DNA of 64,000 nucleotides, taken from IMG/VR virus record IMGVR_UViG_3300044613_001897. One strand, given 5' to 3'. Every line of letters begins with the position of its first letter. Position 1 is the stretch's first letter. This stretch comes from a virus. Below, piece after piece: positions 9,772-58,521 of the stretch. Position numbers and translations under genes: made by a program. Below the pieces are notes generated by a model. That model saw nothing but the letters and a program-made list of their open reading frames with translations. It did not search any database and was not told the origin of the DNA.

Positions 9772-10409
9772 TTGATATTTATTAATTATGCGAACATTAA
9801 CAATATTAGCTACAGAAATCTATCAAAAATTAGGAAAACAATACCCTAATTTAACAGAACGTAAGAAGGCTACTAAACAACATATACTAACAGAAATTTC
9901 ACAATGGGCTATAAAAAAAGGCACATTTAATGATGTTATAGCATTCACGCCGGTTGAATTTAAAGGTACTGCAGATAGCAGCCCATTTGAAGTAAGATTG
10001 GCTTATGATATTGATGATAACTTTTGGGAATTAAAATTTGGAGACTTAAATGCATCTACTCCCGAAGAACAATTTAAGTGGAATGATAAAGATCCATATA
10101 GATTACAAAAGGCGCTATTTCTTCAAACCGTACTAACTAAGGAAATATTACCGTTTATAAAAACTACAAATAGCGAAGGTATAAAATTTCAGCCATATGA
10201 TGGTGATGGATTAGAAGATGAAAGATTAAGTTATTTTCAAAATATGTTTAAAAAATTAAATAAGAATGATTTTGATTTTTCTAAAGGTTATTTAGAAGAG
10301 GATGATACTTGGTATATAACTAAAAAAGTATAATTAATTTAAAATTAAAGTAAACAAATTATTTGGTTTTTTGACAAATTATACTTAGCTTTAAGTATAA
10401 TTAAAAGTT

Positions 10410-11000: not shown

Positions 11001-11002
11001 TA

Positions 11003-11191
11003 ATGTGTGGAGATAACTTAAAAAAGATTCTAAAAGAATATTATGCGGTTTATGAAAAAGAACCAAGACACCAAAACGAGAAAAATGGTGTAATATTAGC
11101 ACACTATAATACAAAAGAAGAAGCTGAAAAGGCGAGAGTTAAATATGGATATGATAATGATAACTATTATGTAGATAAACTCATATATTAA
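11003..11191 (+). CDS. Hypothetical protein; probable distal relic cassette gene
   Basis: ATG at 11003; followed directly by the TAAC box of the first hairpin site; no upstream hairpin site seen. Confidence 0.5.
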   Translation: MCGDNLKKILKEYYAVYEKEPRHQNEKNGVILAHYNTKEEAEKARVKYGYDNDNYYVDKLIY

Positions 11192-11201
11192 TTTTTATTG
11201 A

Positions 11202-11255
11202 ATATAACGTCCGATGATAAACAATCGTTTTAATGTTGTTTATCATTTGTTATGT
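11202..11255. repeat. attC-like hairpin site 1 (short class, 54 bp)
   Basis: ATATAAC gtccg ATGATAAACAA tcgttttaatg TTGTTTATCAT tt GTTATGT. Confidence 0.85.
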
Positions 11256-11294
11256 TCAGTTTTTATTTGTATTTTTGTAAAAAATTAGAATGTT

Positions 11295-11594
11295 ATGGTA
11301 ATAAAATGTAAAAAATGGGTATTATTTAATATATTGAAGGTTAAAGCACATTTTTTAAGACTCAAACACTTTATAATAACAGGAAAAGATATTGAAAAAC
11401 TCCCATCACCCCAAGAAGGTTATTGTAGAGCTTATTTTTTTGAAATAGAAGGTGATTCATATGTATTGAAACATCACGAAATACCACTTTTTTTAATAGA
11501 AAAGTTCTACGAAGACTTCAATAATAAAAATGGTAAGTTAATGGGTTTGAAAAGGGAAGAAGTTGTTAGGTGGGTTTTAGAAAATAAAAATTGA
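11295..11594 (+). CDS. Cassette 1 gene, hypothetical
   Basis: Single ORF between hairpin sites; its stop lies in the terminal inverted repeat. Confidence 0.75.
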   Translation: MVIKCKKWVLFNILKVKAHFLRLKHFIITGKDIEKLPSPQEGYCRAYFFEIEGDSYVLKHHEIPLFLIEKFYEDFNNKNGKLMGLKREEVVRWVLENKN

Positions 11595-11635
11595 ATATAA
11601 CGGTTGAGGATATAAAATCGTTTTAATGTTTTATA
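11595..11635. repeat. Truncated short-class site fused to site 3
   Basis: ATATAAC ggttg AGGATATAAAA tcgttttaatg TTTTATA runs directly into TTATAAC of the next site. Confidence 0.75.
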
Positions 11636-11752
11636 ACGTTTTGCAGATATACGCAGTTCTAATGAAAAATTAAATAGATATGGAAAACTTAAATGATACA
11701 AACAAACCTTCGAATAACGCAGAACAAGAATTGCGTATATCTGATGTTATAG
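11631..11752. repeat. attC-like hairpin site 3 (long class, 122 bp)
   Basis: ATAAC..CAGATATACGCAgTTCT ... AGAAtTGCGTATATCTG at GTTAT. Confidence 0.85.
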
Positions 11753-11907
11753 GTAGTAAAAAAATCGAATTAACTACTGATGAATTACTTAATTTATTAA
11801 AGGAAGCATATAGAAATGGTTATGCTACCTATGAAATGGCTGATGCTGGATTAGAGCCATACGATGCTGATGGATATGCAAGATGGGTTTTATTAGGTTT
11901 GGACTAA
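11680..11907 (+). CDS. Cassette 2 gene, hypothetical; starts inside the hairpin loop
   Basis: N-terminal ...QELRISDVIGS is encoded by the right arm of site 3. Confidence 0.75.
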   Translation: MENLNDTNKPSNNAEQELRISDVIGSKKIELTTDELLNLLKEAYRNGYATYEMADAGLEPYDADGYARWVLLGLD

Positions 11908-11919
11908 AATTTTTATTAC

Positions 11920-11973
11920 TCATAACGGTTGAGTGTAAAAAATCGTTTTAATGTTTTTTACACTTTGTTATAA
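11920..11973. repeat. attC-like hairpin site 4 (short class, 54 bp)
   Basis: TCATAAC ggttg AGTGTAAAAAA tcgttttaatg TTTTTTACACT tt GTTATAA. Confidence 0.85.
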
Positions 11974-12012
11974 GTATGTATTATTTTTGTTTTACCTTAT
12001 AAAAAAGAAACT

Positions 12013-12165
12013 ATGGAAGAAGAAAAAGTTATTTGTCCGAAATGTGGGAATGAAGAAAATTTCCACTTCAATTACGATTATAGTAAAAAGGAACTACCTA
12101 TAATTGACGTGTTATGTAATGAGTGTGGAGAATTTTTTGAATTAGAAAAATCAAAACAAAAATAA
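12013..12165 (+). CDS. Cassette 3 gene, 50 aa zinc-ribbon protein (not in ORF track)
   Basis: MEEEKVICPKCGNEENFHFNYDYSKKELPIIDVLCNECGEFFELEKSKQK; two CxxC pairs. Confidence 0.8.
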   Translation: MEEEKVICPKCGNEENFHFNYDYSKKELPIIDVLCNECGEFFELEKSKQK

Positions 12166-12171
12166 TATTAC

Positions 12172-12304
12172 TTATAACGTTTCGCAGCTAAACGCTGTTG
12201 CGTAATAAAGCGATAAATGCACAATAAAGTAGATAGGTTTATTAAATAAAAAACAGTTTATTATATGAAAAATCAAAGCAATAGCGATTTATGTGCTGTT
12301 ATGG
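12172..12304. repeat. attC-like hairpin site 5 (long class, 133 bp)
   Basis: ATAAC gtttc GCAgcTAAACGCTgTTGC ... GCAAtAGCGaTTTAtgTGC t GTTAT. Confidence 0.8.
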
Positions 12305-12627
12305 CTATGTTGCCTACGCACGGATTCCACAAGACATTGGGAAAAATAGAAATTTTAGGGGTAAGAGTAAAATCAACAACATCAAACAACACTATGTACA
12401 TGACTATAATTGATGGTGATATGTTGTGGGTTTATGATTATGAAACCGAATTAGATTTTACAAAAAAAGATTATGACAATAAGTTACTTCAAGAGTTCAC
12501 ACCTAAAATTTATGAATGGATTATGACGCCACCATTTAATTTAGAACACGCTCAACACGGAATGGCTTGTGAAAAGTTTGGTGATGTCCGTTCTGAATTT
12601 TTGCAGAAACGCTCGTTAGGCAATTAG
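12265..12627 (+). CDS. Cassette 4 gene, hypothetical; in-frame start inside the hairpin loop
   Basis: MKNQSNSDLCAVMA is encoded by the loop and right arm of site 5. Confidence 0.75.
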   Translation: MKNQSNSDLCAVMAMLPTHGFHKTLGKIEILGVRVKSTTSNNTMYMTIIDGDMLWVYDYETELDFTKKDYDNKLLQEFTPKIYEWIMTPPFNLEHAQHGMACEKFGDVRSEFLQKRSLGN

Positions 12628-12681
12628 CCATAACGTCTGATGATAAACAATCGTTTTAATGTTGTTTATCATTTGTTATAG
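12628..12681. repeat. attC-like hairpin site 6 (short class, 54 bp)
   Basis: Core differs from site 1 at one base (GTCTG vs GTCCG). Confidence 0.85.
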
Positions 12682-12724
12682 GTAGTTTCATTTTTTATTT
12701 TACAAATTATAAATTTTCATAAAT

Positions 12725-13024
12725 ATGACAGAAGAACGAATAAAAGAATATGTAGTAAATGGTGGAAAACTTTTTACTATCAAAACAATTGACACTATTA
12801 GGGATGGTGGAACAAAAGTATTGGACACAACTGGTGGTAAATTTTACATAAATAAGGATAGTAAAAAGTTTCATTCTGGTTACTCACCAAGTGATGAAAA
12901 TTTAATAACAGATTTTTTGTTGGTAGAATATCTGATTGAAAGAATTGAAACATACATTAAACGATGTGACGAAGATTTGGAACGAAATAAAAATCTGTTA
13001 ATAGAAATTAAAAATAAAAAATGA
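12725..13024 (+). CDS. Cassette 5 gene, hypothetical
   Basis: Single ORF between site 6 and the integrase-proximal site. Confidence 0.75.
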   Translation: MTEERIKEYVVNGGKLFTIKTIDTIRDGGTKVLDTTGGKFYINKDSKKFHSGYSPSDENLITDFLLVEYLIERIETYIKRCDEDLERNKNLLIEIKNKK

Positions 13025-13030
13025 TATTAC

Positions 13031-13088
13031 CTATAACTCTTATATATACGCACCACAATATAATCAATTAATAATCAATAAGTTATAA
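13031..13088. other. Putative attI-like primary recombination site with IHF-like box
   Basis: CTATAAC without the array hairpin, directly upstream of the integrase ATG; contains AATCAATAAGTTA, matching WATCAANNNNTTR. Confidence 0.6.
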
Positions 13089-13886
13089 ATGCAAGTTCTT
13101 AAAAATTTTCAAGAAAAATTAAGATATAAAAACTATTCTCAGAGTAGTATAAATTTATATACATCATATTTAAAAAATTTTATCGAATATGGTGGGATAA
13201 AAGACCCATACCAAATTAGAACACAACAAATAGTATCGTTTCTTGAAAAATATCCTTACACATCATGCAGCCAACAAAACCAATATATAGGTGCTCTAAA
13301 ACTTTTTGCTAAATATATTTTAAATAAAAAAGACATACATTTAACAAAAATAGAAAGACCAAAATCAGAAAAGAAACTTCCAAGAGTTATTGATGGTGAG
13401 TTTATAAAAGAAAAACTAAACCAAATTGAAAATCTTAAACACAAAGCAATTCTTACGCTAACTTATTCAGTTGGATTAAGAGTATCTGAAATTGTTAACC
13501 TAAAAATTGAAGATATTGATTCAAAAAGAATGCTTATTCATATCAAAAATGCAAAAGGTAGAAAAGACAGAATAGTTCCTCTTTCGCCAAATGTACTTAA
13601 TCTGTTAAGAGATTATTTCAAAGAATATAAACCAATTGAATACCTCTTTAATGGTCAATTTACAAACCAATATTCAATAGGTAGCTGCCAGAAAATATAT
13701 AAGAAATATATTGACAATACATCATCAATCCATACCTTGCGACATTCATCTTTTACTAACTTATTAGAAAGCGGAACTGATTTACGAATAATACAAAAGA
13801 TTGCAGGACATTCATCATCGAAAACTACTGAGATATACACTCATGTATCTAATCAATTATTATCTTCTGTTAATTTACCTATTTAA
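13089..13886 (+). CDS. Tyrosine recombinase (integron-integrase-like, short form)
   Basis: N-terminal SAM-like domain, KLPRVI, GLRVSE (R), AKGRKDR (K), HTLRHS (HxxR), GHSS..TTEIY (H,Y): full catalytic set. Confidence 0.93.
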   Translation: MQVLKNFQEKLRYKNYSQSSINLYTSYLKNFIEYGGIKDPYQIRTQQIVSFLEKYPYTSCSQQNQYIGALKLFAKYILNKKDIHLTKIERPKSEKKLPRVIDGEFIKEKLNQIENLKHKAILTLTYSVGLRVSEIVNLKIEDIDSKRMLIHIKNAKGRKDRIVPLSPNVLNLLRDYFKEYKPIEYLFNGQFTNQYSIGSCQKIYKKYIDNTSSIHTLRHSSFTNLLESGTDLRIIQKIAGHSSSKTTEIYTHVSNQLLSSVNLPI

Positions 13887-14373
13887 TAGGCAGAATTTCC
13901 AAATTATATACAGGGTGAATCTCAGTCCAGTTATGTCTTTTGTCATAAACAAATGCACCAGTAACTATAACTTTATCCCCCTTCTTAGGTACTAGAATAG
14001 GATTGTCAAACATATGGCAGATAGGAAATATTGTACTATGTCCACAAACTATCTCTGCTACTAAGCATGAATCTTGTTTGGTGTAATTTTTATTAACTAA
14101 ATATACCTTTTGAGAACTAACCGAATCTAACTTTAATTTTATATGAATATCACCATCAAATGAATTTTCAATATGATGTATAACACCAGACACAGTTATA
14201 TTATGATTAATTACATGAAGTCTTTTATTGTCATATACCTTTTGCCATAACCTAAATTGATGTGTTGTTAACGAATCAGTATTTGTATTGAATGCTAGGA
14301 GAAATGATAGAAGTAATGGTGACATAAAATAGGTTATACAGATAAGTATAAATAGTAAAAACTTTATGTTCAA
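13879..14373 (-). CDS. Secreted OB-fold-like protein
   Basis: Signal peptide; DGDIHI, LVAEI, VTG, EIHPV pattern; the only convincing minus-strand gene in the window. Confidence 0.55.
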   Translation of the reverse strand: MNIKFLLFILICITYFMSPLLLSFLLAFNTNTDSLTTHQFRLWQKVYDNKRLHVINHNITVSGVIHHIENSFDGDIHIKLKLDSVSSQKVYLVNKNYTKQDSCLVAEIVCGHSTIFPICHMFDNPILVPKKGDKVIVTGAFVYDKRHNWTEIHPVYNLEILPIK

Positions 14374-27561: not shown

Positions 27562-28734
27562 ATGACACAAGAAATTATTTGTACTGTAGTACAAGAAGGA
27601 AGATTCGTAAAAGCGTATGACGCTAAAGGAAATGATATTAGTAAAATAGTCCCGCAGAAACTTAGATTGGAGGCACGCGCCTTAGGTTGTGGTATTATTG
27701 GTAATGGTGACAACTGGCGATTATCAACAGATGCTGCGCAGCCAATAACTAATATAGCGCCTGAGGTAACCTATAAAGAGCCTGTAGTGATGGAATTGAA
27801 AGCTACTAATAAAGTGGACTCTGCTGAGGTTACTAATGTAGTTGAGTTTATCCATAAGGAATCTGCTAACCTTAGACCTAAGCATTTTTTTATGACAGAC
27901 TTGAAATGGAAATATCTAGTTCGAGCAGTTATGCGAGGTAAAAATATTATGATGACGGGACCGAGTGGTACCGGTAAGACTATGGCGGTTAAGCATTTAG
28001 TTGAGTCTTTACAGCGACCTTTCTACTATTTTAACTTAGGCTCAACACAAGATCCTAGATCTACCTTAATCGGTAATACACACTTCAAGAAAGATGAAGG
28101 TACTTATTTTGCTCAATCATTATTTGTGTCAGCTATGCAGACTGAAAATGCAGTTATACTTTTAGATGAGATTTCTAGAGCGCATCCTGAAGCTTGGAAT
28201 ATTTTAATGACTGTGCTAGATCCTAACCAAAAATATTTGCGCTTAGATGAGAAAGATAACTCTCCTACAATTAAGGTTGCTAATAATGTATCTTTCATTG
28301 CGACTGCTAATATTGGTAATGACTATACTTCTACTAGAACTATGGACCGAGCATTACTAGATAGGTTTATTACTGTTGAAATGGATGTGCTTAATAAAGA
28401 AGAAGAAACTACTTTATTGACAATGTTATATCCGACTGCTGATAAAGGTACTGTAAGTACTATTGCAGAGATTGCAGACATTACTAGAAAAACTGTGCGG
28501 TCTGAAAATCCTAGAATTTCTACTAGCTTATCGACTCGTGCTACTGTTGAGATGGGCTCACTATTAGTAGACGGATTTAATTTGCAAGAAATTGCTGAGG
28601 TGGCCATTTATCCTTTCTATTCTGAGGATGGTGGTGTAGAGTCTGAAAGAACTTATATGAAGCAATTGGTTCAAAAGTATATCACTACTACAGATAAAAA
28701 GTTATTTGATACTAATGACGCTAATCCATTTTAA
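27562..28734 (+). CDS. MoxR/CobS-like AAA+ ATPase
   Basis: GPSGTGKT Walker A, ILLDEISR Walker B, IATAN, DRALLDRF. Confidence 0.92.
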   Translation: MTQEIICTVVQEGRFVKAYDAKGNDISKIVPQKLRLEARALGCGIIGNGDNWRLSTDAAQPITNIAPEVTYKEPVVMELKATNKVDSAEVTNVVEFIHKESANLRPKHFFMTDLKWKYLVRAVMRGKNIMMTGPSGTGKTMAVKHLVESLQRPFYYFNLGSTQDPRSTLIGNTHFKKDEGTYFAQSLFVSAMQTENAVILLDEISRAHPEAWNILMTVLDPNQKYLRLDEKDNSPTIKVANNVSFIATANIGNDYTSTRTMDRALLDRFITVEMDVLNKEEETTLLTMLYPTADKGTVSTIAEIADITRKTVRSENPRISTSLSTRATVEMGSLLVDGFNLQEIAEVAIYPFYSEDGGVESERTYMKQLVQKYITTTDKKLFDTNDANPF

Positions 28735-28747
28735 TATTGTTATATAG

Positions 28748-28795
28748 GTCCTGGGCATTGGATAGTAGTAATATACTATCCGGCCCGGGTTTCTA
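28748..28795 (+). terminator. Stem-loop / probable terminator
   Basis: CCTGGGC..TGGATAGTA-loop-TACTATCCGGCCCGGG followed by TTT. Confidence 0.55.
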
Positions 28796-28929
28796 TGATA
28801 TCTATAACTCAACAACTGCGTCGAGTATCCATATAATAAAAAAGTTTAATATCTTAAAAAGTATTAAAATTTGAGATAAAATTTGGTTTTTTGATACAAT
28901 TTCCCTACATTTAAGTATAAGGTTAAAAT

Positions 28930-31047
28930 ATGAAAGTGATTAAAAAATTACCCACAATTACAAACGGTTATAGCACATCCAAATATTGGATAGACGACTA
29001 TACTTACGAAAGATTAGAAAGTACAGGTACGGATATTATAGCATTAGCCAGCTTCCAAAAGGCGATAGCAAACTTTGTCAGAATTACTACCGGGGTAGAT
29101 ATTCCTGTAAAGTATAATACTAAAGATTCTAGTTTTACAGATGGTGAGGTGGTTGTGTTATCTGCTAAATTGGATGACAAATTATTTGACTGTAATGTGG
29201 GCTTAGCTTTACATGAGGGCAGCCACTGTTTATTAACTGACTTCAAGGCACTTAGACGTCTTGTAGACGGTAACCATCCAAAAGTTCATAAATTTATAAA
29301 TGCTGCTCTAGAAAAACATATTGGAGATGCAGAGCAAAAACTTAATGCTTCTATAAACTGGCGCGAACGTTTGAAATATATTCTAAATATAGTAGAGGAT
29401 AGGCGTATAGATAACTATGTGTATAATGCTGCGCCTGGGTATCGAGGGTACTATTTAGCTATGTATGAACAATACTTTAATAATAAAGAGGTTGATGCTG
29501 CATTGATTAAAAATAAGATGTGCACGCCTGATTATGATGGGTATATATTTCATCTATGCAATATTATGAACCCTAATCGAAATTTGAATGCGCTACCTAA
29601 GTTACAAAAGCTATGGGACACATTAGATTTATATAATATTTCTAGAATTCAAAGTACAGAAGATGCTATTGATATAACTCTTCAGTTAGCTTCAATTATA
29701 GAAGATGAATTATTATATATTGATGAGGATACTACTCCAGGTATGAATCCTAATTCGAGTACAGAAGATCCTGAGCAAGAAGAAAATGATCCTGGGCAAT
29801 CAGAGGATGGCTCCGATATATCAGAATCCGATGAATCTAAGGATGGTTCTGGAGATGGTGCTGCTGATAATGGTAATCCTTTAGATCGAGTTGATGTGTC
29901 TCCACAACGTAGTCAATCAGCAAAACAAAAATCTAAAGTATCAACTACCGATAAGAAGGAGGAAAAGAAACTGCAGGATGCAATACAAAAACAAAAGGAT
30001 TTTTTGGATGGTGATGTAAATAAAAAGTCAGTTAATAAAAAAGAATTCCAGCAATTAGATACGATTAATTCTGGAGATGTTTCTGTAGAAAATGTGTTTG
30101 ATAAAAAGACTGATTGTATTGTTATAAATCGAATCACAGAAGCTACTATGAGTATGTTTCCAAACATCTTTACATATGATTATACTGCATTTAAAAAATC
30201 AGGAGGTGTTTATAACCCGGATGGTAAAAGTCGTGCACAACGTAATTTTAATGCAGTCACTGAGGGTATTATGCTTGGTGCAATGCTAGGTCGTAAACTT
30301 AAGCTTAGAAATGAAGATAACTCGTTAAGTACAACTAGGTTACGTGATGGTAAGATAGATAGAAGATTGATTGCTGATCTAGGGTATGGTGCCGAGGCTG
30401 TATTTTCTAAAATAGTACATAAGACTGTCAACCCAGTATTTATTCATTATTCAATAGATGCATCAGGTAGTATGTCTGGAACCGCATTCTATAATGCGTT
30501 AAAGTCTGCAGCTGCAATTGCTAAGGCAGCATCTATGATAAAAGGTGTGAATGTACAAATAAGTTTTAGAATAACGACAGAATTAAATGGCCAAGTAAAA
30601 CCTGCTATTGTTATAGGATATGATTCTAAAAAGAATACTTTACAACATTTAACATCCAAAATGTATTTGGTGGACGCGAATGGATCGACGCCAGAAGGTC
30701 TTTGCTTTGAAGCTATATATAAGACAATGACTACAGCATTAAAACGAAATGTTGATGGTATCTTTATTAATATATCTGACGGCGAGCCTGCATTTGGTGG
30801 TAGAGGAGTAAGCTATAGTGGTAATATGGCTTTAGAACATACAAGAACTCAAGTTGAGCGTTTTAGAAATGCTGGATATAAAATCTTAAGTTATTTTGTT
30901 TGTTCAGATACCTATTGGAATGCTAGGATTAAACGAGACTTTATTCATATGTATGGTAAAGATTCTCAATTTATAGATCCTGTTAATCTTAATGATTTAG
31001 CTAAAAGTTTAAATAGTACTTTACTAGCTCCGGTATATGGTAACTAA
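28930..31047 (+). CDS. CobT-like metallopeptidase-vWA protein
   Basis: HEGSH (HExxH), NIVEDRRID, acidic linker, MIDAS DASGSM, TPE, ISDG. Confidence 0.88.
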   Translation: MKVIKKLPTITNGYSTSKYWIDDYTYERLESTGTDIIALASFQKAIANFVRITTGVDIPVKYNTKDSSFTDGEVVVLSAKLDDKLFDCNVGLALHEGSHCLLTDFKALRRLVDGNHPKVHKFINAALEKHIGDAEQKLNASINWRERLKYILNIVEDRRIDNYVYNAAPGYRGYYLAMYEQYFNNKEVDAALIKNKMCTPDYDGYIFHLCNIMNPNRNLNALPKLQKLWDTLDLYNISRIQSTEDAIDITLQLASIIEDELLYIDEDTTPGMNPNSSTEDPEQEENDPGQSEDGSDISESDESKDGSGDGAADNGNPLDRVDVSPQRSQSAKQKSKVSTTDKKEEKKLQDAIQKQKDFLDGDVNKKSVNKKEFQQLDTINSGDVSVENVFDKKTDCIVINRITEATMSMFPNIFTYDYTAFKKSGGVYNPDGKSRAQRNFNAVTEGIMLGAMLGRKLKLRNEDNSLSTTRLRDGKIDRRLIADLGYGAEAVFSKIVHKTVNPVFIHYSIDASGSMSGTAFYNALKSAAAIAKAASMIKGVNVQISFRITTELNGQVKPAIVIGYDSKKNTLQHLTSKMYLVDANGSTPEGLCFEAIYKTMTTALKRNVDGIFINISDGEPAFGGRGVSYSGNMALEHTRTQVERFRNAGYKILSYFVCSDTYWNARIKRDFIHMYGKDSQFIDPVNLNDLAKSLNSTLLAPVYGN

Positions 31048-45418: not shown

Positions 45419-46576
45419 ATGTCTCTATTTAATGTAAAAGGAGAATCGCTCCAATTGATACCAGCTAAAGTTAACCAGACTTACTACAAAGATGATAAGC
45501 CTGAAAATACTTTTTATGTGTCAGCATTAATATTGGATGGGTATAGCTCGCAACGAGAAGTTTTTGCAAGACCGTTATTTTCAAATATGAAACAACCACC
45601 TCTAGAAGGTGAAACAGTCTTATTATTAGGTACTATAGGTAGTTATGCAAGTGGTATAAGTTCCAATGAAGAATTATATTATTTAGGTATAATAAATCTA
45701 CAGGGTAGTGTACATCACAATTCTATACCGAATATAAATGAAGTTGAAACTAGAAATGAAGGAGGAGGAAATGCTCAATCATATCAAACTACCGGAGCAG
45801 GTAGTACTAAAAAACAACAACAAGCAAAAATAGATAGTAAATTTCCTGAATCAAGAAATGTAAAAGCTATACAACCTTACGTTGGTGATGTATTAATTGA
45901 GGGTAGATTCGGTAATAGTATTAGATTAACTAGCACATTAAAATCTACTAATGTATATACTAAAAATGCTAATTGGCAGAAAGGCGATGGTACAGAGGGT
46001 GATCCTATGTTAATATTACGAGCATCTAAACCTACACAAAATACTAATAAAGTAAATGATTTTATTACTGAAGATTTTACTAAAGATGATTCTATAATTA
46101 CATTACAAAGCACCCAAGCATTAAACTTTACACCAGGATCAAGTGTTACTGATTCGATTAAGAATCAAAGTTTAGATTCATGGGATAAAGGTCAAAAGTT
46201 TGGAGGTAAGCAAATATTAATATCGTCAGGCAGAGTAGTGTTTAATTCAACACAAAATGAAATAATAGCATTTGCTAAAAAAGGAATAGGATTGTCATCA
46301 GCCGATGCTATATCATTAGATGCACAAAAAAATATTGAAATGAGTGCTACTAAAATTTTATTAGGCAAAAATGCTGATGAGCCATTAATTATGGGTAATA
46401 AAATGAAAGATTGGATGGAACAACTAATAGATGCTATAGGTAAATTAACTGCAATAACAGCAGTTGGCCCATCATCACCATTAGATCAATCACCATTATG
46501 GCCAAAAATTGTTGCACTAAAAAATCAATTTCAAAATAACTTAAGTCAAATATCATTCACAAAACAATCAAAGTAA
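45419..46576 (+). CDS. Baseplate hub/spike (gp5-like) protein
   Basis: PLEGETV OB-fold motif, GDVLIEGRFGNSIRL, beta-repeat C-terminus; gene context. Confidence 0.7.
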   Translation: MSLFNVKGESLQLIPAKVNQTYYKDDKPENTFYVSALILDGYSSQREVFARPLFSNMKQPPLEGETVLLLGTIGSYASGISSNEELYYLGIINLQGSVHHNSIPNINEVETRNEGGGNAQSYQTTGAGSTKKQQQAKIDSKFPESRNVKAIQPYVGDVLIEGRFGNSIRLTSTLKSTNVYTKNANWQKGDGTEGDPMLILRASKPTQNTNKVNDFITEDFTKDDSIITLQSTQALNFTPGSSVTDSIKNQSLDSWDKGQKFGGKQILISSGRVVFNSTQNEIIAFAKKGIGLSSADAISLDAQKNIEMSATKILLGKNADEPLIMGNKMKDWMEQLIDAIGKLTAITAVGPSSPLDQSPLWPKIVALKNQFQNNLSQISFTKQSK

Positions 46577-47030
46577 ATAATTATTAAAAACGATAGTATG
46601 AAATCAAAAGAATTTATATCTGCACTACGACTAATCATTCGAGAGGAAGTTACAAAAGCTGTAAGATCTGAGGTAAGTAGGGTATTATCCGAAGGAACAC
46701 AACAACCAGTAGTTAGACAGCAACCAGTACAAACTAAACCAGTTGTATCAAAAACACAAAAATTTAAAAACGAAATACTGCAAAGTCTATTAGAAACGAC
46801 AGACCCAATACAAAGAGGTGGCGCTCCTGTTGGATTTGAGGAGTGGCCAACTATGGAATATAATGGTGCATCATTTATGGGACATAATACTCCAGGTATA
46901 ATAAATGCAGCTCCTGATGGTATGAATATTGATCAAATTGAACAGGTAGCTCCTGATGTTGCTCAAGCATTAACTAAAGATTATAGTTCATTAATGAAGG
47001 CGATTGATAAAAAACGAGGAATAAAATAAG

Positions 47031-47498
47031 ATGGCCAGAAGAATAAGGCAGATATTATCTATAAATACAAATGATGCTATACGACCAATGAATACTGCGG
47101 TCGGTATTAAATTACCATTTTCTGGTAAAACAGGTAACTTATTTGACTTATCGTATACAACAGAAGAACAAGCTATTTCAAATTTGAAAAATCTTTTACT
47201 TACTAGAAAAGGTGAAAGATATATGCAGCCATCTTTCGGTACTGACATATACGATTCATTATTTGAACAAAATACTGAAGATCTACCTAATATATTACGA
47301 GATGGCATTTCCGCAGATATAGCTTTTTGGTTGCCGTATATAATTATAAATGAATTAACGGTGTCTCAAAATTCTAAATACGAATCTGAACCTATCGGAC
47401 ATATATTACAAATAAGTCTAACAGTTCAAGTTACTGAAAATGGAGCTAGTACACCGATAACAATAACAGTAACACCATCAACAATAACTGTGGAATAA
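47031..47498 (+). CDS. Baseplate wedge gp25-like protein
   Basis: LKNLLLTRKGERYMQPSFG. Confidence 0.9.
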   Translation: MARRIRQILSINTNDAIRPMNTAVGIKLPFSGKTGNLFDLSYTTEEQAISNLKNLLLTRKGERYMQPSFGTDIYDSLFEQNTEDLPNILRDGISADIAFWLPYIIINELTVSQNSKYESEPIGHILQISLTVQVTENGASTPITITVTPSTITVE

Positions 47499-49381
47499 TG
47501 GCTAATACAACAGATGTAAAATATTTAGGAAAAGACTTTACTCAATTAAGAACAAACTTAATTGAATTTACAAAGAACTATTTCCCAAACACATATACCG
47601 ATTTTAATGAATCATCACCAGGTATGTTATTTTTGGAAATGTCATCTTATGTAGGTGATGTTCTAAGTTTTTATACTGATAAGCAAATAAAAGAGTCTTT
47701 ATTAGTAACCGCTGAAGAAAAGACGAATCTATACTCATTAGCACAATCTTTAGGTTATAAAGTAAAAAATAAGATAGCAAGTTCGGTAGATATAGATGTA
47801 TTTCAATTATTACCATCGGTAGTAAGCGGAAGTACTGTAGTTCCTGATTGGAGTTACGCACTAACAATATCATCAGGAATGGTGGTTAAATCTAAATCAT
47901 CTACTGCAGAATTTAGAACATTAGAGACTGTTAATTTTAAAACTTTAGAGAACGATCCTAATGCAAATGTAAGTGCATATCAAATTAATGATGTAACTAA
48001 TCAAATTGAATATTATCTATTAAAGAAATCAGTTAAAGCCGTTGCAGGCAATATTCAAACAGCAACATACACATTTACAGATCCTAAACGTTTCGATAGA
48101 ATACTATTGAATACAGAAAATATTATTGAGCTAGTAGACATTATTGATTCTGATAATAATAATTGGTATGAAGTTCCAAATTTAGCACAGGATACAATAT
48201 TTGAAACTATAGCAAATGTAGTACAGAATGACCCGGTATTATCACAATATAATACACCAGTTCCATATTTGCTGAAATTAAGAAAAACAGCCAGACGATT
48301 TATTACAAGATTTAGAACTGATGGGACTTTAGAGATACAATTCGGAGCGGGCATATCTGCTGATTTGGATGAAGAAATAATACCTAATCCAGATAATGTA
48401 GGTTCCGGACTACCAAGTTTACAGTTAATGTATGACTTTCCTATAGATCCATCAAACTTTATGTATACTAAAAGTTATGGATTAGCACCAGCTAATACAG
48501 TATTAACAGTTAGGTATACTACAGGTGGTGGGATAGAATCCAACGTACCAGCTTTTGATTTAGATCAGATCATAGAATTAAATTTTGATATAAACGATTC
48601 TGGACTAAATGCAAATTTAGTAAATCAACTTAAGGCGTCGGTTGCTTGTACTAATCCAAATCCTGCATCAGGAGGTAAAGATGGTGAATCAGAAGATGAT
48701 GTTAGAAATAATACATTAGCATTTTTTGCCGCACAAAGTAGAGCAGTTACCGATCAAGATTATATAATTAGAGCATATTCTATGCCTCCGAAATTTGGAG
48801 CTATATCAAAAGCTTATGTTATACAAGATGTACAGGTTAATCAACAGACAAATCAAGCAGTAGCCAATCCATTAGCATTAAATTTATATACTTTAGGATA
48901 CAATTCAGATGGTACATTAACAGTACTTAATAACGCAGTTAAAGAAAACTTAAAGAATTATTTAACGCCATATAGAATGTTAACAGATGCAATCAATATT
49001 ACAGATGCATTCATTATTAATTTCGGTATAGAATTTGATATAATAACATTACCAGAATTTAATTCTAACGAAGTATTGATAAAATGTATTGATACATTAA
49101 AACAATATTTTGATATTAAAAAATGGCAAATAAATCAACCTATTATTATATCAAAAATATATACTTTATTAGATAGAGTGGATGGTGTACAAACTGTACC
49201 TAGAGTATCAATAAATAATATAGCAAATAAAGAGTTAGGATATTCAGAAAATATTTATCCTATGTCTACACAAGATGGGGGTAGTACTAGAAATGGTGTG
49301 ATCTATCCATCAATGGACCCTAGTATCTTCGAAATAAAATATCCAAATAACGACATAAAAGGTCGTGTAATAAGCCTATAA
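47498..49381 (+). CDS. Baseplate wedge gp6 / baseplate J-like protein
   Basis: DF..LR..L, YVGDVLSFY, FGAG, GGKDGES, QSRAVTDQDY. Confidence 0.88.
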   Translation: MANTTDVKYLGKDFTQLRTNLIEFTKNYFPNTYTDFNESSPGMLFLEMSSYVGDVLSFYTDKQIKESLLVTAEEKTNLYSLAQSLGYKVKNKIASSVDIDVFQLLPSVVSGSTVVPDWSYALTISSGMVVKSKSSTAEFRTLETVNFKTLENDPNANVSAYQINDVTNQIEYYLLKKSVKAVAGNIQTATYTFTDPKRFDRILLNTENIIELVDIIDSDNNNWYEVPNLAQDTIFETIANVVQNDPVLSQYNTPVPYLLKLRKTARRFITRFRTDGTLEIQFGAGISADLDEEIIPNPDNVGSGLPSLQLMYDFPIDPSNFMYTKSYGLAPANTVLTVRYTTGGGIESNVPAFDLDQIIELNFDINDSGLNANLVNQLKASVACTNPNPASGGKDGESEDDVRNNTLAFFAAQSRAVTDQDYIIRAYSMPPKFGAISKAYVIQDVQVNQQTNQAVANPLALNLYTLGYNSDGTLTVLNNAVKENLKNYLTPYRMLTDAINITDAFIINFGIEFDIITLPEFNSNEVLIKCIDTLKQYFDIKKWQINQPIIISKIYTLLDRVDGVQTVPRVSINNIANKELGYSENIYPMSTQDGGSTRNGVIYPSMDPSIFEIKYPNNDIKGRVISL

Positions 49382-49385
49382 TATT

Positions 49386-50480
49386 ATGATAATAGCATTG
49401 ACCCCATATAAAGACGCTACAATATACGAAGATTATCCGAATAAGAACACCGGATTAGATGAGATATTAGAACTACAAAAGGTTGCATATAGCACAGGTA
49501 GCTATGCAGAATCTAGAGCGTTAATATACTTTAACCAATCAGAAATTTTAGAGACTTTAGATTATGTATCTAATCACACAGCAAGTAATGCAACTTGGTC
49601 AGCATCACTAAAACTAAATACAGTACAAACATCACAGGTACCGTTAGAATATTCAATTGTTGTTGGAGCAATATCAGATTCTTGGACCAACGGAACAGGA
49701 AAATTTGCTGATGCAGAATTATCAGGGGGGGCTACCTGGACATATAGAGCAGGTGAAGCAGGTGCAGTATGGGCAACAGGTAGTTTTCCAATAGGCACTA
49801 CAGGTTCATATTATTCCAATCCTGGTGGAGGAACTTGGTATACAGCATCACAAGCAACACAATCATTTACATTTAAGGAAGATAATGATGTGAATGTAAA
49901 TGTGTCATCAATAGTAGAAGATTGGGAAGCATCGAATTATCTTAATAATGGATTTATAGTACGATTAGGAAATATACTATCACCAGAAGTATTACCAGGT
50001 ACAAATCTGCAATTCTATAGTTCAGATACACATACTGTATATAGTCCTCAATTATTTATACAATGGGACAATGTAACTCAATTTAATTCTGGATCATTAC
50101 CTGCTATATCTATTAACGATCAACCTATTATATATTTAGATGGATTTAAGGGAGAATATACAACCGATTCAATAGTTAGAGTATTCGTTAAGTCAAGACC
50201 GATGTATCCAAAAAGAACATTTAGTCAGAACCCTTCATATGGTACTGTATATGCGTTACCTACTCAATCATATTATAGAATACTTGATGGTCATACTAAT
50301 GAAGTTATTGTTGACTATAGCGAGTATACAAAATTAGCATGTAACACAGCAGGAAACTACTTCGATTTTTCTACATCAGTATTATATCCTGAACGATTCT
50401 ATAAGTTTCAATTTAAGTCGATAATATCGAGTAGTACAGTATATTTTATAGACGATTATTTATTTAAAATAGTTAACTAA
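49386..50480 (+). CDS. Virion structural protein (DNRLRE-like)
   Basis: KDATIY...NTGLDEILE...RALIYF...NNGFIV...YSPQL. Confidence 0.6.
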   Translation: MIIALTPYKDATIYEDYPNKNTGLDEILELQKVAYSTGSYAESRALIYFNQSEILETLDYVSNHTASNATWSASLKLNTVQTSQVPLEYSIVVGAISDSWTNGTGKFADAELSGGATWTYRAGEAGAVWATGSFPIGTTGSYYSNPGGGTWYTASQATQSFTFKEDNDVNVNVSSIVEDWEASNYLNNGFIVRLGNILSPEVLPGTNLQFYSSDTHTVYSPQLFIQWDNVTQFNSGSLPAISINDQPIIYLDGFKGEYTTDSIVRVFVKSRPMYPKRTFSQNPSYGTVYALPTQSYYRILDGHTNEVIVDYSEYTKLACNTAGNYFDFSTSVLYPERFYKFQFKSIISSSTVYFIDDYLFKIVN

Positions 50481-51610
50481 TGAGTTTCAAAAATTATAGA
50501 AAGTTAGGGTTTGCAGTTACCGAAAGTGACACTGCAGTACCTAGAAATGATTTAGGGTATCTAATATTAGATAAAAATAATAATCCACAGTCTATATCAA
50601 TTCCTATAGTTACACAGCTATTTGAATTTGGTAAGTATAGAGAGGTAGTTGATATTGAATTTCTAGAATTATTTCCACCTATATTTACCCCACCTGTAGA
50701 TGTTGCTGCATTACTAGCACAGATTACTGCATTAAACGCTGCACTAAGTGCTAGTTTATTAGTTCAAGTAGAACCTACACCTGTAGAATTTGATTTGTGG
50801 AGAACTAGAAAAACATTTAAACGAATTGTCGACAAACCTGTAAACCCATATGGTGCAGGTACCGACGCGTGGACATCTGACCAACAATGGGCAGATTTTA
50901 ATTCGGTTATACAATTAATTTTCGGACCATCACTTACGCCTGAATTACAAACATTAATATCTGAATATAGAACTGAAGTAGCGTTAATAACTGCTACCAT
51001 AGGCGACGCACCGCAGCCTGGCGGATTGTTTGGTGGTGGTGTAAATTTTGGTGTACAAGTATCATTAACATCTGTAGATGATGCAATACAACCACAACAA
51101 TCACCGCAACCACTTACATATACTGACATTAGTGCTATAGGGCAGTTTATTAATGATGAGAATATTGGAGATGTAGATACATTCTCACCATTATTGAATC
51201 AATCGACAATGGCTCTCCTACAAAATACAAACAGATCTTTAATATCAGATGTGAAGGATAGTCAAATAAATGCGTTAGTGTGGGGGGATATACCATGGCC
51301 ATATTATACATATATCAATCCAATTTCAAATCGACCATTTGTCACATCAATGAGCGAATTTAGACATCATTGTAAAAAGATAGTATATTGGCTAACTATA
51401 CCACAAATGATGAATATCAATAATGATGCTACAATTAATGCTATCATAGGGAATACTTCTTGGCGTGTACTGAATAATACAGCAACACAGGCTGAACTAG
51501 AAGCGTTATATGAAACTATAGGTAGATTAGAAAATACACCGTTAAAAGATAGTCAAGGTACTACAATAGCACCAGTAGGAGCAACCGGATATTTCGTTAA
51601 TATAAGATAA
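50480..51610 (+). CDS. Putative structural protein
   Basis: Position in the baseplate operon; translationally coupled. Confidence 0.5.
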   Translation: MSFKNYRKLGFAVTESDTAVPRNDLGYLILDKNNNPQSISIPIVTQLFEFGKYREVVDIEFLELFPPIFTPPVDVAALLAQITALNAALSASLLVQVEPTPVEFDLWRTRKTFKRIVDKPVNPYGAGTDAWTSDQQWADFNSVIQLIFGPSLTPELQTLISEYRTEVALITATIGDAPQPGGLFGGGVNFGVQVSLTSVDDAIQPQQSPQPLTYTDISAIGQFINDENIGDVDTFSPLLNQSTMALLQNTNRSLISDVKDSQINALVWGDIPWPYYTYINPISNRPFVTSMSEFRHHCKKIVYWLTIPQMMNINNDATINAIIGNTSWRVLNNTATQAELEALYETIGRLENTPLKDSQGTTIAPVGATGYFVNIR

Positions 51611-51614
51611 ATCT

Positions 51615-52268
51615 ATGTCACAACTTAAATTTTTTGCTTTAGATTCAACAGGACAGCCAAAACTAACGCAGTCAGGATCAAAGGCCGCAACAATAATACG
51701 ACAATTAAATCAAGCTATTATAGATAATAGGGATTATTCATTTGGATGGTTTAAAGGGCTAAATGTCGAAACAACCGATGCTAACGCATACGAATTTGCG
51801 GATGAATTACGAGAATATGCAAAATTTAATGCAAAAAAATCTATATGGGATAACACATTAGCTACAGGCAATTATTTTAAATGGGACTATTATGCTCAAG
51901 AATCAAGAGCTACTGCATCACTTAACATAGTAGATACCGAGTTTATTAATGACAGAGCATTCCAAATAAAATCATCAGAACAAAATGGTGATTCTAATTT
52001 TATTGAATATTATGGTAGATATCGACCGGAACTTTTTGAGATATATGATGTGTATTATACCGTAGTTCCTACTGCAGGAATAATAATATTACCACCACCA
52101 TATGATACTTTAAATAGAGAGCATGTATTAGCATGGTTCAAAGGAGTAAATTTAGCACCAACAACAGCTGCTCTAGATAGATATAGAGAAAGAATAAAAA
52201 ACTATTTAACAGATCCAAGGGTTCAGCCCGATATTAAAATTGATGTTGGGATATTTATATCTAAATAA
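51615..52268 (+). CDS. Hypothetical protein in structural operon
   Basis: Gene context only. Confidence 0.45.
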   Translation: MSQLKFFALDSTGQPKLTQSGSKAATIIRQLNQAIIDNRDYSFGWFKGLNVETTDANAYEFADELREYAKFNAKKSIWDNTLATGNYFKWDYYAQESRATASLNIVDTEFINDRAFQIKSSEQNGDSNFIEYYGRYRPELFEIYDVYYTVVPTAGIIILPPPYDTLNREHVLAWFKGVNLAPTTAALDRYRERIKNYLTDPRVQPDIKIDVGIFISK

Positions 52269-52273
52269 CGGTA

Positions 52274-55200
52274 ATGTCATTTTCCTTCATAAACAGCGAT
52301 AGTTTAATACAAGTACAGAATTTACCAGATACTGGTAAGTACTATGATGATAGAATAATAGATCTAATACCATCATCATATTATGATATACTTACATTAC
52401 CGACCTCATCAATAAATTTAGAATTACATGCATACGATTTAGTCGGTAATTATTTAACTGGAACTAGTTACGCCAATACTAACTATTGGGGGTATAGTAG
52501 TAGTATAGCAGCACCTGTTATAAGGTTGAATGTAGATGTAAACAGTATATTGGAAGAATTAGGCCTGCTTCGAGGGCAATATCTATTAGGTACAAATTTG
52601 TATAAACCTGAAGTAGGAAATTATAATACATCATCGTTTTACATAAAAGAAATATCAACAACTAGAAGAGAATTACGATTATATCCTGTTAATGACGATA
52701 GTACACAATTTCAAACAGAGTATACTAACTTTATAGATAGTTGGAATAGTAACTTTCTGTATTGTATAGATGATTCAGTTAGAAGATATGAACATTATCA
52801 ACAAAACTTTTATTTCGACAATAACGCAGTATCGTTTGCATCATATACATCATCATTAGCTACGCCATTGGCAGTCTATACAAATACAACATCCAGTGCG
52901 TTCGATCAATATATATTAGGCATAAATAACGATACTAATTGGTACACAAATGGCGCGGCAAATAGCAACACTATAACCATCGGCGGGACGATTGCTACTG
53001 GGTTAACTGTTGCACCATCACAACAGTATTTAGATGCATTTGCATCAAAAGCAGCAATAACCGCATTATGGTTTAAGTCAGCTGATATTGAAATAACACC
53101 TGATACTATACAAGCATTTGAATTCGAAATTAAAGAATATATAAATACATTTGCATCTACAGTAACTGTACAACAGATAAAAAGTATATATGATAGTATA
53201 CTAACAAAAGAATTTTGGAGAAAGGATTCGAATGGTACACCGATATATGTAGGACAAACATACTTTAACACGATACGAACGGCACTACCATCTTTTCCTG
53301 GGTTACCTCCGTTACCGCCACCACCATCAACATTCGCTAAGGCAAGATATTCATTACAACCGTTTAATGTATATAATGATAAATTAGTATTAAATTTTGG
53401 TAACAATAATTTAGCTAAAATAATCAATATAGCTAAAGAAGACCCATATGCTATTATTGTAAAATTGTCGCAACCATTAGATTTACAATTTCAAGAATAT
53501 GATAGATTATGGATAGCTACCGAACTTATAGAACCATTAATAGATAAAATCTTATTAATCAATCTAATAGTTCAACAGCTAGGTAACAATCTACGTGGTC
53601 CTAATTTTGATATCGATATAGAAGAGGCGCAAAGTATAGCAACATCATTACAATCTTGGAATGATTTATTATCGGCAAATGTTGCAACAAATCAACAGAT
53701 AATAAATAAGTATTTTAGTTCTAGTTTAGATGGGATAGTATTAAATATAGATTATACAGACTTTAAAAACTTTATACATTTTAGTTCTGCTGAAGAACGA
53801 GTATCTAATTTTAAGTATAAACTAGAATTAATAGAATATTATACTAATAGAATTAATGTACTAAATAGTTCTACAGGCTCACTTCTAGATATAAATGTAT
53901 TAGAGTCTGAAAGTAATAGAAATAAAATTATTTCAGGATTCGATGATTTTGAAAAATATTTATTCTATCAAACAAATGACACATATCAATTATATACATT
54001 CGAGACAGGCTCAATACTACCATGGCCTAAACAAAATGTAGCCAACTCATATATATCATACGAAAATCAAGTATCGACAACTAGTTCAATAGCTGAAACA
54101 TATTTTAGTGATTTATTACAACAGGCACAGACATATGACTCATATAATTTACATAGCTTAAGAAAGACTATTCCTGTACATTTACAAGATGACCAATTTA
54201 ATGCTGATTATATCTTATTTGTAGATATGATTGGTCATTACTATGATATTATTTGGTCATACATTAATGATATGACTAAAATCAATACTAGATTAGAAAA
54301 TCCTAGAGATGGTGTATCTAATGATTTAATATATGGAATAGCTAAATCATTAGGATTAGATGTATATAATGGTAGAAACATACAAGAACTTTGGAAATAT
54401 TCATTAGGTGTTGACACAAGCGGTAGTTATATACAAACAGGTAGTATTCAATCATTATCATATGAGCAAGGCACAAAAGAAGTATGGAGAAGAGTAATTA
54501 ATAACTTACCATATCTTTATAAGACAAAGGGAACTGCAAGAAGTATTAAAGCATTATTATCTTGTTATGGAATTCCTACTAGTATATTGAATATACGAGA
54601 ATATGGTGGTGTCGCTTCTGATGAAAACGATTTATTTCCTTATTGGGTGCATGATATATTTACATATGCACATAAAGCTACAGGTGATGATTCAAATTAT
54701 GTCATAACACCATGGCAAGCATTCACAAAAGTTACAAAAGACCTCCCGGCCGGATATCAAACTAGTAGTTTAGTAATATCTACAACATCAACCGGAACAA
54801 GTACAGGACCGACAACTACTACAATACCTACAGTAGGTATACAAACAGGAACATCATCGACTAGAAATACACCAAGATCAAGCACGATAGTTAATAGAAG
54901 TACTGATACACAATCGACACAATACCCGGATGCTATAGAGTTTAGATTTAGAACTGACGACAATTTTACATATGCATATAATCAAGAATATTCATTATTA
55001 AGATTGAATTCAGTTAATTATCAGTTCACAGGAGAAACTTGGTCACAGATACAAACACAATGGAATCAAACAAATATAATATGGTCATATGCAAGTACAT
55101 CATTAGCAGTAGCTAATCCATTCTTTGAAGTTACATTAAAACGTATAACAGATAAACAAGGAACATTGACATTATATATGTCAGGTAGTAATGGGTATCT

Positions 55201-56707: not shown

Positions 56708-56750
56708 TAAAATCAGAAAAAAATATATTTATTAATAAAATAGAAATAAT

Positions 56751-57419
56751 ATGGGATTCTTAGATAACACCACAGTAACCGTAGATGCGATTTTAACTAA
56801 AAAAGGAAGAGAGTTATTGTCAGCAGGTTCACAAGATTTTAACATTACAAAATTTGCATTATCTGACGATGAGGTAGATTATACATTGTGGAATCCAAAT
56901 CATCCAAATGGTAGCGATTATTATGGCACAGTAATACAAAATATGCCATTATTAGAAGCTACGAGCGATGAAACACAAGTAATGAAATATAAATTAATTA
57001 CATTACCTTTATCAAGTCAGTATATACCAGTAATTCAAGTTACAAATTCATCATATGTATATTCTGCAGCCACAGGCCAAGTGGATATTATACGGCCTAC
57101 AACAACCGCAGGTGGATCAACAGTTAATACATTAGGTACGTTAAACTCTACAGCAGGGTATACAGCAATATTATCAGATGGTGAGTTCTTTAATTTAACA
57201 ATTGATACACCAGTATCAAACACATCTACTATACCACAATTTATAGGCGATATACAAACAAATAGAAGCGTATCTGTAGTTGGGCTATCATTTAGAATTA
57301 GTCCTAAACGCCAACCATCAGCCGCTGAAGGAGATAAAACTGCTATATTAACTTTAATTGGTAATGAAACCGGTGGTTTAGTAACTATTAATTTGACAAT
57401 ACAAGCATCAACAATATAA
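56751..57419 (+). CDS. Baseplate/tail structural protein
   Basis: DAILTKKGRELL...ITKFALSDDEVDY. Confidence 0.65.
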   Translation: MGFLDNTTVTVDAILTKKGRELLSAGSQDFNITKFALSDDEVDYTLWNPNHPNGSDYYGTVIQNMPLLEATSDETQVMKYKLITLPLSSQYIPVIQVTNSSYVYSAATGQVDIIRPTTTAGGSTVNTLGTLNSTAGYTAILSDGEFFNLTIDTPVSNTSTIPQFIGDIQTNRSVSVVGLSFRISPKRQPSAAEGDKTAILTLIGNETGGLVTINLTIQASTI

Positions 57420-57430
57420 AATAAAAACAT

Positions 57431-58507: not shown

Positions 58508-58521
58508 AATTGACATAACAT

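What the first reader, a model, noticed from the sequence alone, without database searches (positions are those of the whole stretch)
11249..13037. Each cassette's two ends are complementary to each other
Seen (cassette start vs reverse complement of its own end): cassette 1 GTTATGTTCAGTTTTTATTT vs GTTATATTCAATTTTTATTT; cassette 2 GTTATAGGTAGTAAAAA vs GTTATGAGTAATAAAAA; cassette 3 GTTATAAGTATGTATTATTTTTGTTTT vs GTTATAAGTAATATTATTTTTGTTTT; cassette 4 GTTATGGCTATGTTGCCTA vs GTTATGGCTAATTGCCTA; cassette 5 GTTATAGGTAGTTTCATTTTTTATTTT vs GTTATAGGTAATATCATTTTTTATTTT. Inference: the fully extended stem forms only when a cassette is circularised, which is the signature of units that move independently. 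The 17-27 bp pairing is much longer than the 7 bp R box of classical attC, and stop codons lie in or next to it.
Basis: partly seen in the sequence, partly recalled or inferred. Interest (0 to 1): 0.85.

Follow-up and report, generated by a model that had tools for sequence, protein, structure and literature searches.

The report
Integron-like gene cassettes in lake phage
A freshwater phage carries five small swappable genes, each with matching DNA ends that complete a folded recombination site when the gene loops out; it works like the integrons that spread antibiotic resistance, but its enzyme lacks the part thought essential for that job.

Summary
The self-complementarity is real: own ends give the best of 120 possible pairings (cassette 2 is weak), and 250 of 268 cassettes from related phages pair better with themselves than with a neighbour. 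The region is a five-cassette array beside an attI-like site and a 265-aa tyrosine recombinase lacking the IntI I2 insertion. Units move: a 99%-identical phage has other cassettes at the same attI, shared cassettes change neighbours exactly at TAAC, and cultured Freya phages differ by one whole unit. The outer stem is about 15 nt, with a near-invariant G·T mismatch at position 11 that is mirrored in the hairpin's inner arm. The circularised site is therefore a two-armed substrate that folds best on one strand. Bacteroidota chromosomes carry the same sites with genes in classical orientation. I found no paper describing this; the scan has noted such arrays on other DNA many times. Verdict: an I2-less integron variant, activity untested.

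The parts
11032..11207 (+). Truncated cassette 0: gene remnant (ORF 11003-11191) and intact 3' arm; 5' hairpin and 5' arm lost
   Evidence: L033 holds the same gene (87.5% over 176 nt) as a complete self-pairing cassette
11208..11600 (+). Cassette 1: short hairpin site (11204-11253), 5' arm from 11249, 99-aa ORF 11295-11594, 3' arm ending at TAAC 11601
   Evidence: no Pfam/NCBIfam/PHROG hit
11601..11636 (+). Remnant of a lost cassette: left part and inner hairpin of a short site joined directly to a cassette end
   Evidence: sequence; the only such fusion among the loci scanned
11637..11925 (+). Cassette 2: long hairpin site (11633-11750) containing the start codon, 75-aa ORF 11680-11907
   Evidence: 86% homolog in L073 with other neighbours
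11926..12177 (+). Cassette 3: short site (11922-11971), 50-aa CxxC zinc-ribbon-like ORF 12013-12165
12178..12633 (+). Cassette 4: long site (12174-12302) containing the start codon, 120-aa ORF 12265-12627
   Evidence: a 906-nt contig of run X4 matches only 12166-12635, with other flanks on both sides
12634..13036 (+). Cassette 5 (next to attI, presumably newest): short site (12630-12679), 99-aa ORF 12725-13024
13026..13054 (.). attI-like double-stranded site: 11-nt arm supplied by the last cassette, crossover in TAAC (13034-13037), 6-7-nt spacer, TATATA-containing second arm
   Evidence: conserved 46-66 nt upstream of the recombinase in most loci; sequence left of TAAC differs in every relative
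13089..13886 (+). 265-aa tyrosine recombinase (Phage_int_SAM_4 + Phage_integrase) with R131, K156, H215, R218, H241, Y250 invariant; no IntI I2 insertion

Best explanation
This is a phage-borne integron-like system run by the adjacent I2-less tyrosine recombinase. SHOWN: each unit runs from the C of one TAAC to the AA of the next and holds hairpin site, 5' arm, gene and 3' arm; units are gained and lost at TAAC, including at the attI-like site. SHOWN: in circular form the + strand folds into outer arm (own two ends), core, an uneven spacer (6 nt opposite 9-10 nt) and inner arm; both arms have a conserved T at position 11 facing G. INFERRED: the recombinase binds this folded + strand as a Xer-like two-armed site, cuts between AA and C, and makes one strand exchange with double-stranded attI; the second exchange is blocked because the spacers share only the first C; replication resolves the junction, as described for IntI and CTXphi. 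INFERRED: the G partner keeps the T in both arms only in the + strand fold and spoils one arm of each double-stranded array site, giving strand choice without extrahelical-base pockets. The self-complementary ends exist because the outer monomer needs about 11-15 bp of duplex; this favours integration of circles, and in a single-stranded array may pre-align the two TAAC ends of one cassette for excision. Genes face attI and are probably read from a phage promoter upstream of the array or carry their own starts in the long sites.
For: Self-pairing statistics. 362 sites upstream (324 kb) vs 1 downstream (428 kb) of the recombinase in 80 viral loci plus the window. Nearest phage record is 99% identical from 13026 onwards but has three unrelated cassettes at attI. 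Seven pairs of shared cassettes keep the 5' site while the flank changes at TAAC. Freya_9 lacks one 304-bp unit of Freya_10, break at AAC, 100% identity on both sides, same arm grammar. Position 11: G at 11 or 12 facing T in 240 of 244 outer stems, A:T in 2; inner arm A 97% vs G 76%. Other mismatches are G·T on the same strand: 35 vs 4 outer, 220 vs 45 inner; 56 vs 24 in bacteria, where genes lie on the opposite strand, like the bottom strand of attC (PMC5027507). Spacer identity attI vs sites 1.0, 0.04, 0.12 at positions 1-3. Gene-less 29-nt units with co-varying arms share the short site's loop. XerCD acts on folded single-stranded DNA without I2 (PMC4792948, PMC7790495).
Against: No recombination assay. 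No circular junction was seen in the four runs laid (contigs drop rare forms). I2 is reported as necessary for cassette capture (PMC7790495). Some arrays noted by the scan lack an adjacent recombinase (unchecked). A few viral homologs with 6 kb of upstream DNA show an attI-like site and no detected array (L065, L070, L078). The attI register (6 or 7 bp) is ambiguous. The crossover cannot be placed more finely than the shared TAAC.
Confidence: 0.7

Rival explanations
1. The array is real but is moved by another enzyme (host XerC/XerD, the host's longer cassette recombinase, or a true IntI); the adjacent gene is dispensable.
For: The cassette end consensus resembles a XerD arm (mean 7.1 of 11; arm sequence from PMC7399989 Table 1). 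Hosts carry XerC, XerD and a 350-390-aa homolog. Class 1 IntI1 can recombine attC sites from other phages (PMC9892861).
Against: The attI-like site sits at a fixed distance from the phage gene and arrays lie only on that side; catalytic residues are invariant in 48 homologs; no IntI above cut-off in F. palustre, F. psychrophilum or F. limicola, which carry arrays. The XerD likeness is partly forced by the TTA core and A/T richness.
Confidence: 0.12
2. Recombination is on double-stranded DNA (arm-spacer-arm sites); end complementarity is a by-product of how cassettes are made, for example by template switching, and is not needed for movement.
For: The right half of each site is a neat 11-6-11 layout in double-stranded form. 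The enzyme looks Xer-like and lacks I2.
Against: Exchange maps to the left TAAC, where the double-stranded spacer is 9-10 bp. Variable positions co-vary between ends hundreds of bases apart yet position 11 is almost never paired, and mismatches are biased to G·T on one strand.
Confidence: 0.12
3. The repeats are homologous-recombination hotspots or regulatory hairpins (terminators, processing sites) and genes are swapped by phage recombination between similar repeats.
For: Short sites are near-identical between phages and very abundant in lake samples (summed depth over 2000 vs about 5 for the backbone); T-rich runs follow some hairpins.
Against: Exchange at attI leaves only TAAC shared; long sites are dissimilar in sequence yet share the grammar; no Rfam match; cassette-specific end pairing is not explained.
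Confidence: 0.06

Closest known systems
Classical integrons (IntI, attI, attC cassettes; class 1 and sedentary chromosomal integrons)
   Same: Tyrosine recombinase gene pointing away from an attI-like site; array of single-gene units; hairpin sites with AAC/GTT core; crossover in that core; one strand folds better through G·T pairs; own ends pair in the circle.
   Different: No I2 insertion; TIGR02249 score 152.8 vs cut-off 265; core consensus GTTAK rather than GTTRRRY; spacer 6 vs 9-10 nt instead of 5-6 on each arm; symmetric G·T mismatch in both arms instead of extrahelical bases near L''; genes inverted, with start codons often inside the site (86 of 135 long sites).
Phage CALINs and integrons of Qi et al. 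2023 (PMC9892861), including Polaribacter phage P12002L
   Same: attC-like sites and small-gene cassettes in phage genomes.
   Different: Those were found with classical attC models and either carry a true IntI or no integrase; here a dedicated non-IntI recombinase and attI-like site are conserved across about 70 viral loci. I did not check whether the P12002L sites belong to this family.
CTXphi / IMEX integration by XerCD
   Same: A recombinase without I2 acting on a folded single strand with one strand exchange (PMC4792948, PMC7790495).
   Different: CTXphi uses host XerC and XerD at dif and integrates a whole genome; its stem mimics duplex DNA. Here one phage-encoded enzyme builds an array of small cassettes.
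Xer/dif and pdif modules
   Same: 11-bp arms and a 6-bp spacer; the end-arm consensus resembles the XerD arm; best structural matches include archaeal XerA and XerH.
   Different: pdif sites are double-stranded, 28 bp and use host XerC/D; the tree separates this enzyme from Bacteroidota XerC/XerD.

Membership tests
Integron (IntI/attI/attC) | Tyrosine recombinase with intact RKHRH-Y catalytic set | tested here: met
   R131, K156, H215, R218, H241, Y250 invariant in 48 homologs
Integron (IntI/attI/attC) | IntI-specific I2 insertion in the catalytic domain | tested here: not met
   Alignment to IntI4 (2a3v residues 178-259 vs query 174-207) and to IntI1 shows the insertion absent; TIGR02249 152.8 < 265; model has no extra helix there
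Integron (IntI/attI/attC) | attI next to the integrase gene, receiving cassettes | tested here: met
   Conserved site 46-66 nt upstream; proximal cassette differs between near-identical phages
Integron (IntI/attI/attC) | Array of mobile single-gene cassettes exchanged at an AAC/GTT core | tested here: met
Integron (IntI/attI/attC) | attC anatomy: RYYYAAC/GTTRRRY, 5-6-nt spacer on both arms, extrahelical G and T near L'' | tested here: not met
   Position 5 is T or G; spacer 6 vs 9-10 nt; G·T mismatch or one extra base in both arms; definition from PMC5027507. No attC covariance model was run.
Integron (IntI/attI/attC) | Genes on the top strand with attC 3' of the gene | tested here: not met
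   257 of 268 phage cassettes have the gene on the other strand; Bacteroidota chromosomal arrays meet it (37 of 38)
Integron (IntI/attI/attC) | Recombination of one folded strand with replicative resolution | not testable with these tools
   Only indirect support from wobble bias and folding energies
Integron (IntI/attI/attC) | Pc promoter at attI driving the cassettes; SOS control of intI | not tested
   Genes face attI, so a Pc there could not express them
Xer/dif (XerC, XerD, pdif, IMEX) | Enzyme belongs to XerC or XerD | tested here: not met
   TIGR02224 151.5 < 335, TIGR02225 148.1 < 330; host XerC/XerD form a separate clade, 95/87; hosts keep both besides the homolog
Xer/dif (XerC, XerD, pdif, IMEX) | 28-bp 11-6-11 site with conserved XerC and XerD arms | tested here: inconclusive
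   Geometry similar, arm match 7.1 of 11, but host dif was not found for comparison
CALIN | Cluster of classical attC sites with no integrase nearby | tested here: not met
   An intact recombinase and attI-like site abut the array

The most novel reading that the evidence does not exclude
A widespread, active cassette system of Bacteroidota and their phages in which a small Xer/IntI-related recombinase without I2 recombines folded single strands, reading symmetric G·T mismatches instead of extrahelical bases: either a surviving stage before I2 was acquired or an independent route to integron function, with phages using gene-inverted cassettes.
Probability: 0.5. Interest if true: 0.9.

Novelty: new variant of a known kind. 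Interest (0 to 1): 0.74.

Why it matters
I2 is held to be the innovation that made integrons possible, and published work notes the lack of intermediates (PMC7790495). An I2-less enzyme with its own attI and cassette arrays makes that origin question directly testable with a standard assay. Integrons are reported as rare in Bacteroidetes (PMC9024848); these arrays sit beside homologous recombinases in Flavobacterium, Chitinophaga and other chromosomes and in large lake phages, and the enzyme falls below the IntI profile cut-off. Cultured Freya phages already differ by whole cassettes, so a laboratory model exists. Gene-less and decayed cassettes bear on the open question of how cassettes are made.

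Tried and rejected
No whole genome was held. A degenerate genome-wide pattern for the sites did not beat its reversed control. A dif pattern found no convincing host dif, so the dif likeness stays a lead. The class 1 control was small and automatic delimitation failed for several cassettes; only four clear cases are quoted. No circular-junction joint in four runs; these are contigs, so this is no evidence of absence, and no RNA holder was listed. The go-back joint 12165 to 11198 is off the crossover and most likely another genome's cassette end. Cassette 4 protein and a cassette 5 start motif had no match in viral contigs. Atlas searches for cassettes 4 and 5 gave nothing above lead level. Rfam: none. 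Apart from one weak isolated candidate at 48541-48704, no other sites in the window. Eight literature searches found no description; the Freya paper (PMC8776804) never mentions cassettes or integrons; the library misses most subscription papers. The tree does not place the enzyme relative to IntI (one long IntI1 branch, 92/87, not starred), so 'ancestral' is not claimed. Rejected: CRISPR-like or tandem repeats (units are whole genes), IS/MITE inverted repeats (no transposase, no target duplication, site shared between neighbours).

Full report
Observation. The five start/end pairs are present as described. Beyond the shared core, each start pairs best with its own end; the self assignment is the top of 120 permutations (57 vs 45) and far above random pairs in the window. 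Cassette 2 is the exception in strength: it pairs equally with the end of cassette 5. The circle-form junction folds more stably than the array junction on the + strand for all five cassettes.

Anatomy. Between the genes lie hairpin sites, short (50 nt) or long (118-129 nt), each opening with TAACG and closing with TGTTA. A 36-nt remnant at 11601-11636 is a short site fused to a cassette end; a deletion between two short direct repeats would explain it (inference). Upstream lies a cassette that has lost its 5' part; L033 holds it whole. After cassette 5 comes an unpaired TAAC followed by a TATATA motif, then a 265-aa tyrosine recombinase with all catalytic residues, below the cut-offs for IntI, XerC and XerD, and without the I2 insertion. 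The model's best structural matches are archaeal Xer, IntI4 and XerA. The window looks like part of a large phage (primase, MoxR AAA and CobT-like genes; ligase and thymidylate synthase by my reading) from lake water. A Bacteroidota host is inferred from the homologs.

Family. In 80 viral loci plus the window, sites lie upstream of the recombinase (362) and not downstream (1), and an attI-like site sits 46-66 nt before the gene in most. In 268 unique cassettes self-pairing exceeds neighbour pairing in 250. Pairing covers positions 1-10 and 12-15; at position 11 the end carries T and the start carries G, in register or after one extra base, in 240 of 244 self-pairing cassettes. The inner arm of the hairpin shows the same defect, and the spacer is 6 nt on one strand and 9-10 on the other. 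Remaining mismatches favour G·T on the + strand, also in bacteria where genes lie on the other strand. Four gene-less 29-nt units with co-varying arms use the same loop as the short site's inner hairpin, so the outer and inner arms are the same kind of element.

Mobility. The nearest virus record is 99% identical from 13026 onward and has three unrelated cassettes at the same attI. Eleven close homologs show different ends left of TAAC. Shared cassettes keep the site 5' of the gene while flanks switch at TAAC, which fixes the unit as site-gene, crossover at the left core. A contig of run X4 carries cassette 4 with other flanks, another carries the recombinase with other DNA left of attI. Cultured Polaribacter phages Freya_9 and Freya_10 differ by one 304-bp unit at attI with the same grammar; the describing paper does not mention it. 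These could be assembly variants of mixed lysates, which would still imply precise loss.

Bacteria. Homologs at about 40-48% identity are mostly in Bacteroidota, are longer (about 350-390 aa or more), and have the sites downstream in reverse polarity (85 vs 3), mostly about 126 nt, with genes in classical orientation (37 of 38) and the same position-11 rule. The four genomes checked keep XerC- and XerD-sized recombinases separately, and three Flavobacterium genomes with arrays have no IntI above cut-off.

Mechanism. Read on the - strand the layout is that of an integron: divergent integrase, attI, cassettes each followed by their site, but with inverted genes. The + strand corresponds to the recombinogenic bottom strand of attC (PMC5027507). 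I infer one strand exchange at AA|C between the folded + strand and duplex attI, blocked from a second exchange by lack of spacer homology and resolved by replication; XerCD with CTXphi is the precedent for doing this without I2 (PMC4792948, PMC7790495). The long end pairing supplies the duplex arm for the outer monomer. The G at position 11 would leave the conserved T in both arms only in the + strand fold. None of this is assayed.

The ends can pair in the linear array too. End pairing of 10-12 nt occurs in some class 1 cassettes, so length alone is not the novelty; the symmetric mismatch, uneven spacer, missing I2 and inverted genes are.

Verdict. It works like an integron but fails three defining tests (I2, attC anatomy, gene orientation), so I file it as a new variant, not a member. 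No describing paper was found in the searchable library. The scan has recorded such arrays in at least 30 genomes; those notes are unchecked and are not counted as support. Interest 0.74.

Noticed in passing
window 5051, 10359, 14924, 15461, 21037, 31491, 34008, 35653, 37384 (+ strand): A repeated 35-40-nt intergenic motif beginning with TTTGG and ending in an A/T-rich box precedes many genes; at least 12 further copies in the nearest record G001. Probably a phage promoter; the copy at 10359 could read through the array.
   Followed up: partly
L212-L214 (match at 1501-1794): 73-77% homologs of the cassette 1 protein sit in other phages with no hairpin site; L214 keeps what looks like a decayed 3' arm. 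Suggests exchange between cassettes and ordinary phage genes.
   Followed up: partly
L012:5604, L020:5921, L023:5908, L029:348; L030:5886, L045:3103: Gene-less cassette bodies of 29 nt (four variants) and 51 nt with co-varying arms, several next to attI.
   Followed up: partly
L161-L166 (Polaribacter phages Freya_1 to _10); also Cellulophaga phage Ingeline and Polaribacter phage Leef hits: Genome length differences of 44.0-48.9 kb among Freya isolates track the DNA upstream of the 'integrase'; some of these cassettes hold several genes. The enzyme was read as a sign of lysogeny in PMC8776804.
   Followed up: partly
L094, L092, L108, L128 (Deltaproteobacteria and Nitrospirae MAGs): I2-less homologs outside Bacteroidota; L094 shows TAAC/GTTA-bounded small genes downstream of the recombinase and L092 has four sites.
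   Followed up: no
L100, L159, L122, L134 and others: Chromosomal homologs reach 480-580 aa through N-terminal extensions that were not characterised.
   Followed up: no
window 13879-14373 (- strand): A 164-aa ORF converges on and overlaps the end of the recombinase; one of few minus-strand genes, with a local GC-skew reversal; no significant family hit.
   Followed up: no
window 27562-31047: MoxR-like AAA ATPase followed by a CobT/vWA-like 705-aa protein.
   Followed up: no
window 52274-56707: 1477-aa protein with no Pfam or PHROG match, within a run of large unannotated genes (45419-60426).
   Followed up: no
window 11001-13000: GC skew is positive on the + strand, so the strand that folds best may be the lagging-strand template, which would favour hairpin formation; skew may instead reflect coding bias.
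   Followed up: no
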